This document shows, piece by piece, positions 12,001-15,000 of a stretch of DNA of 64,000 bases (its first letter is position 1; every line of letters begins with the position of its first letter). Where the stretch lies: NCBI RefSeq assembly GCF_001447785.1, contig NW_015165855.1, forward strand, positions 616,338-680,337, read 5' to 3'. Origin of the DNA: Gekko japonicus (lineage: Eukaryota). The position numbers were made by a program.

Positions 12001-15000
12001 ACCAACTGAGGGGACTCACATAGCCTCCTATAATTTTTGAGGAACAAGGTTTGTTTTAAACTATAAACCTTCCTCTCAGTTACCACATGTTCTTAAGGCA
12101 GTAGGTGTATAGGGCCCCGGTCATACGGGCCAGAAAATGTGGGGGGGGGGAGTGTGGCTGTTTGCCCCAGAGGAAAATAACACACGGTTGCACGATCAGA
12201 CGTCCCTTCGAGGTCCCGTGGAGGTCCCGTGGTTAGGGGGCAGGTGCCGATCACACGATGATCCTGCAGCACGGCAAAGAAGCGGTGCGGCGCAATCACA
12301 CCAGCAATCGCTAGGCGCCGCTTCTGTGGCAAACGGGATGGATTTTTTTTAAACTGAAGTTTGTGCATATGCATGACTGAGCAATCGTATCTGCACATCT
12401 GAAGGCGGGTGGTGGGCTGACCGGAGAGGGCGACAGATGCTTCCGGACCCCAACAGAGCTCCGAGGCATAGGCAATGGAGGGGGAGGTGGGCCCCCTCGT
12501 CACAGCCGCTCTAACCACCTGCGCGACAGTGGCCATAGCGACCCTCCAGAGGCAGCAAGCCTGGCTGCAGTGGGAGGGGGCCTCTTTGTGTGCATGCGCC
12601 GTTGGGCGCTTGTGCGCATCCTGTGGAGACTTGGGGGAAAAAACCTGTTCGCGACAGGACATGGGCGGGTGCTGGATGCCACGGGATTCCACCGGAAACG
12701 CGATCAGGCGCCCGCCCTTGCCCCGCGGTTTCAGGAAACTAGTACCTCGGAGGTACTAGTTTTTACCCCGCATCTTCAGCGGGAAGCCTCGGGTTCGGCA
12801 CAGGAGCTCTACGCTTCCCAGATGTGGCGCTGTGATCGCACCCGGAAAATCCGCCTTTCTTCTGTCTCTGTAGCGTGGCTAATGCTCCGTGTGACCGCAG
12901 CCTAGGAATGGGTTCACTGTCATTAGATAAGTTTTGTGGTGCACCAGCAGAATCAATGAGGCAGAAATTGTATATCAATAACACAGAAGTTTTTTGGATT
13001 TTTTACAGGTTGATTTCAACAAATGGCTCAGCATCACAGGTCTCCAGATAGTCAGAGAAGAAACCTGGCTGAGGCACATAAACTTAAGCTAGTTATGCCT
13101 TCAGAGTATGGTTTAAATTTTCTTCAATGCTTTCAGGCACAAACAGGCTTTTATTGACTAGTCACTAGGTTGGATCCTCGCACACATACAGGATTCCACC
13201 CACACCAACCTGCAGTTTCCCAAGACTCAGACTAACCTTTAACTGACTAAATACTAACTATCTCAGGAGTGCAAATATAATTCCAACTCACTTTATACAG
13301 AATAACTTTTCCCAATCTTCATCATCAATAGATCCCATCTCCCTCTCTCATTTAGCCTATCATACCTTGCAGGATTGTTCATGAGAATAAATGCAGTGGG
13401 TTGTTTTTTTCCAGAACAGCCATGCTTGTCTAAGCTCTTACATAGATTACAAATTAATGCACCTATTTTTTTACTGAAGGAATACAAGACCATAATATTA
13501 AATACTTTAGCAAATCCTTCAAATGCCAATTTCATGGGCAATCGATATTATTCTATCAATCACCTTACAAAAAACTTTCCCATCATTAGGCATACAGACA
13601 GGAAGATCAGAATTGAACTAAAATATACCAGAAATTTTGTTACAGACAAAATAATTAATCCTCAGTCCCTTGTTAAGGTACTTATCCACTGAAAATCTGT
13701 CAATTTAGTTTTGCGGAATACTGAAAGTAGTACTTTTCAAATCATGATCTGTTGCTATTATAACACTTCATATGGAGCAAGGCTACACCTTCAGAAAAAG
13801 TATGTGGCACAGCTCTCCTGTGACTGTATCACATCAAAACACGGGTGGGTAAGTCTTATATTTCCTGCCAACCTAGCAGTTCGAAAGCAAGAAATTGCAA
13901 GTAGATAAATAGGTACCACTTCGGTGGGAAGGTAACAGCGTTCTGTGCGCCTTGGTGTTTAGTTAGAGCGGGGGTTAAGATAAACAGTGCAGTCAAGTTG
14001 CAAAATGGAAAATACCAGGAACAGGCAATGTGATGTGAATGAATGTGCCCTGCCTGAAAAAGTGTGTGTGAGAGAAAATGAAGACCGTGTTAATACTCCT
14101 GGTGGCTTCAAATGTGTCTGCACAGAGGGCTTTGAAGAAAAGGATGGTGCCTGTGCTCCAGTTATAAAAACAGGTTAATCAGGTTTTCAATAATTTGAAA
14201 GCTGCCATTCCCTTATTGGAGTCTGAATCTTCTAGAGAACTGCCTGAAGAACTTTCACTGCTTCTCGATGTATGTTCAATGTTTTCTTCTGTTACGCTGT
14301 TGTCCTCTGCTCTTCCATCCTTCGCTGTTGTTTGGTGCTGTTCCAAAAATGCCTTTGCTTTTGTAACAGGGTCAATCTTTTGCTTCTTTTCTTTGTAGTT
14401 GAAGATAAGTCCTTCTGGAGTTATCCATCTGTAGGGGGTGGAGTTGTTACACTAAGACAGTGTTCAGTTGACAGTTGAGATCTGACGATTCGCCATCTTT
14501 TAATATAAGTTGTATGATTTTATATTGATTGATAGTTTTAATGGAATTTTAATGTATTTTTATATATGTTGTTAGCCACCCTGAGCCTGCTGAATGGCGG
14601 GGAGGGCGGGATATAAATGTAAATATATATATTTAAAAAATAGTCATGCCGGCCACATGACCACGGAAATGTCTTCGGACAGCACTGGCTCTTCGGCTTT
14701 GAAACGGAGATGAGCACCGCAACCCTAGAGTCAGATTCGACTGGCTTTCGAGCAAGGGAACCTTTACCTTTACCTTTAAGTCTTATATTAAAATGCCCCC
14801 AAGAATAAAAATGTCCCAGTACTAGGATGTGGGGGAGGATCACAAGCTAAAACACCTTGGTACAAGTTTTTCGTATGGAGGGAAGGAGAATGATTAAATG
14901 TGCAGTTACCCCTTGCCGTAGTACAATCCCAGGGGAATTCATGCGCTTTTCTGAATGTACAGATAGGCTGAGAACATGCACTTCAGATTGGTGGTAGAAT

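What the first reader, a model, noticed from the sequence alone, without database searches (positions are those of the whole stretch)
13964..14640. Chimeric insert (CRELD2-like EGF, antisense L1 ORF1, L2 tail) nested in a Sauria SINE
Seen: a 677-bp block splits the SINE at a duplicated TAGT, so it appears to have arrived as one unit. It holds a CRELD2-like cbEGF coding piece with no AG acceptor before DVNEC, ending ACAG|GT. An antisense L1 ORF1 end follows within 6 bp, then an L2 3' tail. Inference: a host transcript ending in an L2 tail was mobilized in trans by L2 machinery, or RT template switching joined three RNAs. Host-gene capture through a tail-stringent LINE would be unusual. The lost Cys argues against a functional protein.
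Basis: partly seen in the sequence, partly recalled or inferred. Interest (0 to 1): 0.65.

Follow-up and report, generated by a model that had tools for sequence, protein, structure and literature searches.

The report
CRELD2 exon retrocopy with L2 tail
A lizard SINE is split by a dead 677-bp retrocopy that carries one exon of the CRELD2 gene and ends in the tail of an L2-type LINE, an uncommon but not unprecedented kind of mobile-element by-product.

Summary
A Sauria SINE is split at 13963/14645 by a 677-bp insert (13964-14640). TAGT lies on both sides, and two intact SINE copies in the window read straight across the break. The insert holds exactly one CRELD2 exon, the last calcium-binding EGF (14032-14173). 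It is 89% identical to an unnamed CRELD2-type fragment and 75% to tinamou CRELD2. Similarity stops at both exon borders; GT follows the exon, no AG precedes it, and one of six cysteines is lost. The insert ends in register with two L2-type LINE 3' ends in the window, sharing their hairpin and A/T-rich tail. The "antisense L1 ORF1" is not supported: no family, structure or homologue match, and 5.35% of shuffles give an equally long open frame. The middle 307 bp (14174-14480) and the first 68 bp are unassigned. Best reading: an RNA with a CRELD2 exon upstream of an L2 tail was copied by L2 machinery and inserted as one unit. Whether that RNA was an intron-retaining CRELD2 transcript or arose by template jumps cannot be settled without the genome. 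It is non-functional and of modest interest.

The parts
13863..13963 (+). Left half of the interrupted Sauria (Squam1) SINE; its last four bases, TAGT at 13960-13963, are the left copy of the duplication
   Evidence: 98% identical to 26668-26767(-) and 88% to 47856-47950(+); alignment A1
13964..14031 (+). 5' end of the insert, 68 nt, origin unknown. It is purine-rich, with no pyrimidine tract and no AG before the exon.
   Evidence: No CRELD2 similarity (tblastn with 8 CRELD2-type queries). No other copy in the window. No similarity to the two L2 ends (z<1).
14032..14173 (+). One complete internal exon of CRELD2 (last calcium-binding EGF domain), with the third cysteine replaced by Arg
   Evidence: Pfam EGF_CA E=1.3e-10. 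89% to P0009, 75% to Tinamus guttatus CRELD2 P0228 and 69% to Gopherus CRELD2 P0206, over this stretch only. P0009 goes on into the next exon exactly where the window shows GT.
14174..14480 (+). Middle part, 307 nt, begins with GT and is T-rich (39% T); unassigned.
   Evidence: No family, structure or homologue match. Open frame not beyond chance. No DNA similarity to the window's L2 ends (z<1). Only a weak plus-strand peptide match to the L2 ORF2 end: E=4.4 and 20 of 500 shuffles as good.
14481..14574 (+). A/T-rich stretch resembling the 3' UTR of an L2-type LINE
   Evidence: Local alignment of 14481-14568 to the 3' UTR of the L2 end at 27505-27960(-): score 19, z=2.7, 5 of 300 shuffles as good; the reverse strand gives nothing. 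Alignments.
14575..14640 (+). L2-type terminal hairpin (GCCACCCTGAGCC...GGGGAGGGCGGG, 14575-14610) followed by a 30-nt A/T-rich tail ending in six A
   Evidence: 14569-14642 is 76% identical to 17715-17781(-). The motif occurs 6 times against 1.07 expected. The hairpin folds at -22.4 kcal/mol, z=-2.4. It ends in register with two L2 3' ends.
14641..14778 (+). Right half of the SINE, beginning with the right copy of TAGT (14641-14644) and ending in (ACCTTT)3.2
   Evidence: 95% identical to 26539-26670(-) and 94% to 47947-48082(+). ACCTTT repeat at 14760-14778. Sauria SINEs end in (ACCTTT)n (PMC13295347, passages).

Best explanation
The block is a dead, 5'-truncated retrocopy of a chimeric RNA. 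That RNA carried one CRELD2 exon upstream of the 3' end of an L2-clade LINE.

Proposed steps:
1. An active L2 reverse transcriptase bound the terminal hairpin and tail of that RNA.
2. It primed on a nick inside a young Sauria SINE, in the spacer between two protocadherin variable exons.
3. It copied about 677 nt and stopped, leaving a 4-bp duplication (TAGT).

The most economical source RNA is a partly processed CRELD2 transcript. It would have kept the intron after the last EGF exon, and that intron would hold an old L2 3' fragment in sense orientation about 300 nt downstream of the exon.

Shown: the one-unit insertion, the CRELD2 exon with exact exon borders, the GT after it, and the L2-type terminus in register.

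Inferred: that L2 machinery did the copying, that the middle 307 nt is CRELD2 intron, and that the first 68 nt come from an upstream (possibly alternative) exon.
For: - One insert, one 4-bp duplication, with the SINE consensus continuous across the break.
- No direct-repeat pairs around the sub-parts.
- CRELD2 similarity covers one exon only, 14032-14175. All other hits of the 8 queries in 64 kb have E>=0.002, and those below 0.1 are other EGF repeats on the same exon.
- The spliced fragment P0009 leaves the window sequence exactly at ACAG|GT.
- The insert's last ~160 nt match L2-type 3' ends at 17715-18368(-) and 27440-27993(-). These carry a LINE ORF2 C-terminus, a 3' UTR, the same hairpin and a (TAAA)-like tail, and the insert stops at the same relative place.
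- The hairpin folds better than 195 of 200 shuffles.
- L2 ORF2 proteins bind the cognate 3' stem-loop, and retrotransposition needs it (PMC4176376, abstract and passages).
- Short duplications predominate for a zebrafish L2 (PMC2666801, passages). [quoted passage not shown]
- The plus frames of the middle part lack a recognisable L2 ORF2 end although the insertion is young. This argues that the L2 piece was an old fragment within another transcript, not a fresh L2 RNA.
Against: - The first 68 nt look neither like the end of the upstream intron (no AG, no pyrimidine tract) nor like the conserved upstream CRELD2 exon of turtles, birds and amphibians. The single-transcript model therefore needs an unseen alternative exon or a very divergent lizard exon.
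- The donor after the exon, GTTAAT, is weak by the recalled consensus.
- The middle 307 nt could not be shown to be CRELD2 intron, because no lizard genome is available here.
- That the two comparison elements belong to the L2 clade rests on my recall of their ORF2 C-terminal motif and on literature about Squam3. No library match supports it, and Pfam gave nothing for those ORFs.
- The duplication is only 4 bp and the first three bases of the insert repeat it, so part of it may be microhomology.
Confidence: 0.55

Rival explanations
1. Template jumping. An L2 reverse transcriptase started on an L2-tailed RNA, jumped to a CRELD2 RNA and then to a third RNA. The block would then join three or four separate templates.
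For: [quoted passage not shown]
- The first 68 nt fit no CRELD2 part.
- Chimeric pseudogenes made by LINE template jumps are described in a fungus (PMC2104539, search listing and abstract only).
Against: - Both ends of the CRELD2 piece fall exactly on exon borders, and GT follows it. Random jumps would not do that.
- The middle 307 nt would need yet another template.
Confidence: 0.22
2. The part after the exon (about 14179-14640) is one 5'-truncated L2 element in sense orientation: a decayed ORF2 C-terminus, 3' UTR and tail. It would be joined to the exon either by splicing into the L2 or by a jump.
For: - The plus-frame peptide ELPEELSLLLDV matches the L2 ORF2 end ELPEEIQALRDL.
- It lies at the same distance from the hairpin: 367 nt here against about 363 nt in the copy at 17.7 kb.
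- 20 of 500 shuffles score as well on the plus strand, against 253 of 500 on the minus strand.
Against: - The same match has E=4.4 in a tblastn of the window.
- DNA alignment of 14176-14480 to both L2 ends is at shuffle level (z 0.4-0.6).
- A young copy of an active L2 should show the ORF2 end clearly.
Confidence: 0.12
3. The block is one copy of an established multi-copy, L2-dependent non-autonomous element that picked up the exon earlier.
For: The L2-type tail is the feature SINEs use (PMC3747384 and PMC7983390, passages).
Against: No second copy of 13964-14568 in the 64-kb window. This is a weak argument for so small a sample.
Confidence: 0.08
4. Serial nesting or a DNA-level event (filler DNA at a break, Helitron capture, or L1-mediated copying of an A-tailed RNA).
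For: The duplication is short, and the insert ends in six A.
Against: - The 3' end coincides with the natural end of L2 copies.
- No internal duplication pairs.
- No 5'-TC or 3'-CTRR ends, and the hairpin lies about 30 nt from the end. Helitron features are recalled.
- L1 copies usually have 7-20 bp duplications and a long poly(A) (recalled).
Confidence: 0.03

Closest known systems
Partially processed (intron-retaining) retrocopies and chimeric retrocopies made by LINE machinery
   Same: A gene fragment copied through RNA. It is 5'-truncated, flanked by a target duplication and dead on arrival. Partially processed retrogenes and chimeric retrocopies are listed in the review PMC5470649 (passages).
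   Different: The 3' end is an L2-type hairpin and A/T-rich tail, not a poly(A). Only one internal exon is present. The duplication is 4 bp.
SINEs and other RNAs mobilised through a shared 3' tail by stringent L2-clade LINEs (UnaL2/ZfL2 model; Squam3 SINE in squamates)
   Same: The terminal hairpin and simple-repeat tail are shared with LINE copies in the same window and with a Squam3-like SINE at 24490-24770. Recognition of the stem-loop by ORF2 is shown for ZfL2 (PMC4176376).
   Different: There is no pol III head. The body is a pol II gene fragment, and the block is apparently a single copy.
L1 5' or 3' transduction and exon shuffling
   Same: Host sequence next to a LINE piece travels with it in one RNA.
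   Different: The host sequence lies upstream of a LINE 3' fragment and would have been read from the host gene's own transcript. The machinery implied is L2, not L1. The comparison rests on recalled knowledge.

Membership tests
Sauria (Squam1) SINE as the host element | Colinear similarity to other copies and a 3' tail of (ACCTTT)n | tested here: met
   88-98% identity to two other copies. (ACCTTT)3.2 at 14760-14778. The tail is as given for Sauria SINEs in PMC13295347 (passages). No SINE library was available.
CRELD2 (last calcium-binding EGF exon) | A cbEGF domain closer to CRELD2 orthologues than to other EGF proteins, with CRELD2 exon borders | tested here: met
   - EGF_CA E=1.3e-10.
- 14 of the 150 listed hits reach >=55% identity, and all 14 are single-domain matches.
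- By eye all 14 carry the same CRELD2-type EGF segment; this was not scored.
- P0108's named relatives are CRELD2, and P0136 has DUF3456 and ends in REDL.
- Multi-EGF proteins reach at most 47%, apart from one partial 18-residue match; ADGRE5 is the best PDB hit.
- Borders are as.
CRELD2 (functional copy) | Six conserved cysteines, and neighbouring CRELD2 exons | tested here: not met
   The third cysteine is Arg. No other CRELD2 exon in the window.
L1 ORF1 protein (Transposase_22 and its C-terminal domain) | A significant match to the family profile or to solved ORF1p structures | tested here: not met
   0 Pfam families at E<=10 for 14179-14451(-) and sub-pieces. 0 PDB chains at E<=10. 0 of 184 candidates at E<=0.01. 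Open frame reached by 5.35% of shuffles.
L2-clade LINE 3' end | A terminal stem-loop and simple-repeat tail shared with LINE copies that carry an ORF2 C-terminus | tested here: met
   Shared with 17715-18368(-) and 27440-27993(-). Those two are 59-62% identical to each other over the ORF2 end.
L2-clade LINE 3' end | Assignment of those LINE copies to the L2 clade by a repeat library or RT phylogeny | not testable with these tools
   No Repbase or Dfam here, and Pfam gave nothing for the C-terminal ORFs. The assignment rests on the recalled motif RAFSxxAPxxWNxLP and on Squam3 literature linking this kind of tail to L2 (PMC7983390).
Classical L1-type processed pseudogene | Introns removed, a poly(A) tail and a 7-20 bp duplication | tested here: not met
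   GT and non-coding sequence follow the exon, only six A stand at the end, and the duplication is 4 bp.

The most novel reading that the evidence does not exclude
A stringent, tail-specific L2 LINE of a lizard mobilised a partly spliced host pre-mRNA in trans through an old L2 fragment lying in a retained intron. This would be a natural case of an exon carried upstream of a LINE tail. It would show that L2-type elements, and not only L1, can move host exons to new loci.
Probability: 0.4. Interest if true: 0.45.

Novelty: new member of a known kind. Interest (0 to 1): 0.28.

Why it matters
If the parent locus confirms it, this is a clean single example that tail-specific L2 elements can carry a host exon to a new place. 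Stringent LINEs are thought to do this rarely (review PMC5470649, passages). The copy itself is dead: it has lost a cysteine, has no neighbouring exons and lies antisense to the protocadherin genes around it. Its value is as a mechanistic footprint and as a young insertion marker, not as a new gene.

Tried and rejected
- **L1 ORF1.** Pfam at E<=1 and E<=10, PDB sequences and a word-based homologue search among longer proteins all found nothing.
- **Sense L2 ORF2 end in the middle part.** Suggestive colinear peptide but not significant; kept as a rival.
- **Upstream CRELD2 exon in the first 68 nt.** No hit; reading the three frames by eye gave nothing convincing.
- **Internal duplications or inverted repeats marking separate insertions or a DNA transposon.** None that bracket a sub-part. 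The 12-nt repeat CTGCCTGAAAAA/CTGCCTGAAGAA (14050 and 14240) has no continuing similarity.
- **Helitron capture.** Rejected on end sequences (recalled features).
- **Rfam.** Only a tRNA-like SINE head outside the block reached its family's cut-off.
- **Not done.** No structure prediction or complex prediction was run, because the pieces are too short to be informative. The bacterial genome collection, the phage, plasmid and E. coli sets were not searched because they cannot hold lizard sequence. Supplementary files of the papers were not seen. Consensus sequences of Squam3 and of squamate L2 families in figures or supplements could bear on the tail assignment.

Full report
**Setting.** The window is not human.
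- It carries squamate repeats: three Sauria SINE copies plus a short fragment, a Squam3-like SINE and L2-type LINE ends.
- It also carries a row of about 2.4-kb protocadherin variable exons on the minus strand: 2-1891, 3579-6005, 8612-11143, 20903-23446, 31311-33838, 44752-47328, 51416-54016 and 59547-62009. Each has cadherin repeats and, where complete, the protocadherin cytoplasmic domain.
- The finding lies in the spacer between two of these exons, and its coding piece is antisense to them.

**The split SINE.**
- A blastn of 13800-14800 against the window gave 7 rows, including the self match.
- 13863-13962 matches 26668-26767(-) at 98%. 14641-14772 matches 26539-26670(-) at 95.5%. The copy at 47856-48082(+) gives 88% and 94%.
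- Flanks outside the SINE do not match, so these are independent and rather young copies.
- In the alignment both intact copies read GTGTTTAG(T/C)CATGCC without interruption.
- In the split copy TAGT stands at 13960-13963 and again at 14641-14644.
- The SINE ends in (ACCTTT)3.2, the tail reported for Sauria SINEs (PMC13295347, passages).
- The duplication is short, and the insert's own first three bases repeat it, so part of it may be microhomology.

**The EGF piece.**
- The plus frame 13984-14178 reads through a calcium-binding EGF domain. Pfam EGF_CA scores E=1.3e-10, 41.8 bits against a cut-off of 27.
- A full HMMER scan of 1.84 billion representatives found 528 proteins at E<=0.001. Of the 150 listed, 14 have at least 55% identity, and all 14 are single-domain matches.
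- I fetched those 14. By eye all carry the same CRELD2-type segment; this was not scored. P0136 has DUF3456 and ends in REDL. P0108's named relatives are CRELD2, and CRELD2 names dominate the named rows of the 120 listed, for example Equus przewalskii, Gopherus flavomarginatus and Tinamus guttatus.
- Multi-EGF proteins reach at most 47% identity, apart from one partial match over 18 residues. The best solved structure is ADGRE5.
- A tblastn of 8 CRELD2-type proteins against the window hits only 14032-14175: 89% for P0009, 75% for tinamou, 69% for tortoise. No other CRELD2 exon appears anywhere in the 64 kb. The few other hits below E=0.1 are other EGF repeats of the queries on the same exon.
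- P0009 continues into the next exon exactly where the window has ACAG followed by GT (14170-14175). Fragments from other species diverge immediately before the first Asp.
- So the piece is one whole exon, with exact borders.
- Before it stands TG, not AG, and the upstream 68 nt are purine-rich.
- The third of the six cysteines is Arg.

**The supposed antisense L1 ORF1.**
- The 90-codon open frame at 14179-14451(-) is real, but nothing supports the assignment.
- It gave 0 Pfam families at E<=1 and at E<=10 for six pieces on both strands.
- It gave 0 PDB chains at E<=10.
- None of 184 word-sharing longer proteins scored E<=0.01.
- The plus strand is 39% T, which depletes stop codons on the minus strand. 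5.35% of 2000 dinucleotide shuffles give an open frame at least as long.

**The tail.**
- The window holds two LINE 3' ends, at 17715-18368(-) and 27440-27993(-). Each has the C-terminal end of ORF2, a 3' UTR of about 250-290 nt, a hairpin GCCRYCCTGAGCC...GGGGAGGGYGGG and a (TAAA)-like tail. Their ORF2 ends are 59-62% identical to each other.
- I recall their motif (RAFSxxAPxxWNxLP...KTxLF) as the hallmark of L2 ORF2. No library here can confirm that, and Pfam gave nothing.
- The insert's last 74 nt are 76% identical to the first copy.
- 14481-14568 aligns to the 3' UTR of the second copy better than 295 of 300 shuffles.
- The insert ends at the same relative position as both copies.
- The hairpin folds at -22.4 kcal/mol, z=-2.4, for the insert. 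The other two tails are less distinctive (z=-1.4 and 0.1).
- The same motif closes a tRNA-headed SINE with a (CTT)n tail at 24490-24770. [quoted passage not shown]

**The unassigned parts.**
- 14176-14480 shows no DNA similarity to either L2 end (z 0.4-0.6).
- One plus-frame peptide (ELPEELSLLLDV) matches the L2 ORF2 end and sits 367 nt before the hairpin motif, against about 363 nt in the copy at 17.7 kb.
- That match has E=4.4 in the window, and 20 of 500 shuffles do as well. I keep it as a rival, not a finding.
- The first 68 nt match nothing.

**Mechanism.**
- There is one flanking duplication, no internal repeat pairs around the sub-parts, and a 3' end that coincides with the natural end of L2 copies. 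Together these argue for a single target-primed reverse transcription event by L2 machinery.
- That fits the literature. ZfL2 proteins bind their cognate 3' stem-loop and need it (PMC4176376, abstract and passages). Short duplications predominate for ZfL2-2 (PMC2666801, passages).
- The insertion is young, yet no intact ORF2 end is seen. The L2 piece was therefore probably an old fragment inside another transcript.
- The exact exon borders, with GT after the exon, suggest a CRELD2 transcript that kept the following intron.
- The weak point is the 5' 68 nt, which is neither intron-like nor like the conserved upstream exon.
- Template jumping is reported to add extra 5' nucleotides in about 40% of genomic ZfL2-2 copies (PMC2666801). 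It is the main rival, but it does not explain why both junctions fall on exon borders.

**What stayed unchecked.** The parent CRELD2 locus, the copy number, the empty SINE site in relatives and a repeat-library annotation. No tool here reaches a lizard genome or Dfam/Repbase.

**Verdict.** It is a new example of a known kind of event, namely a chimeric, partly processed retrocopy with a LINE-type tail.

Noticed in passing
window 2-62009, minus strand: The window is a clustered protocadherin locus with at least eight variable exons of about 2.4 kb in tandem. Each has cadherin repeats, and the complete ones also have the protocadherin cytoplasmic domain.
   Followed up: partly
window 31311-33838 (-): One protocadherin variable exon is split into two overlapping open frames, 32921-33838 and 31311-32936. 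This looks like a frameshift, so it is either a pseudogenised exon or an assembly error.
   Followed up: no
window 17715-18368 (-), 27440-27993 (-), 37174-37431 (+): Three 5'-truncated LINE 3' ends with an L2-like ORF2 C-terminus. The third is older (E=2.5e-8 to the first) and abuts the N gap at 36800-37167.
   Followed up: partly
window 24490-24770 (+): A tRNA-headed SINE with the L2-type hairpin and a (CTT)n tail, fitting the Squam3B subfamily. That subfamily is reported from Gekkota and Lacertoidea, which hints at the host lineage (PMC7983390).
   Followed up: partly
window 15161-15232 (-): A tRNA-like match (Rfam RF00005, 44.9 bits) inside what looks like another tRNA-derived SINE head, just downstream of the finding.
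   Followed up: no
window 34363-35106 (-) and 18887-19186 (+): Reverse-transcriptase fragments: RVT_1 (E=9.4e-28) and a Copia-type RVT_2 (E=1.3e-19). Neither is linked to the L2-type tails.
   Followed up: no
window 14050-14061 and 14240-14251: A 12-nt near-repeat (CTGCCTGAAAAA / CTGCCTGAAGAA), one copy inside the CRELD2 exon and one in the middle part. Similarity does not continue, so it is probably chance.
   Followed up: yes
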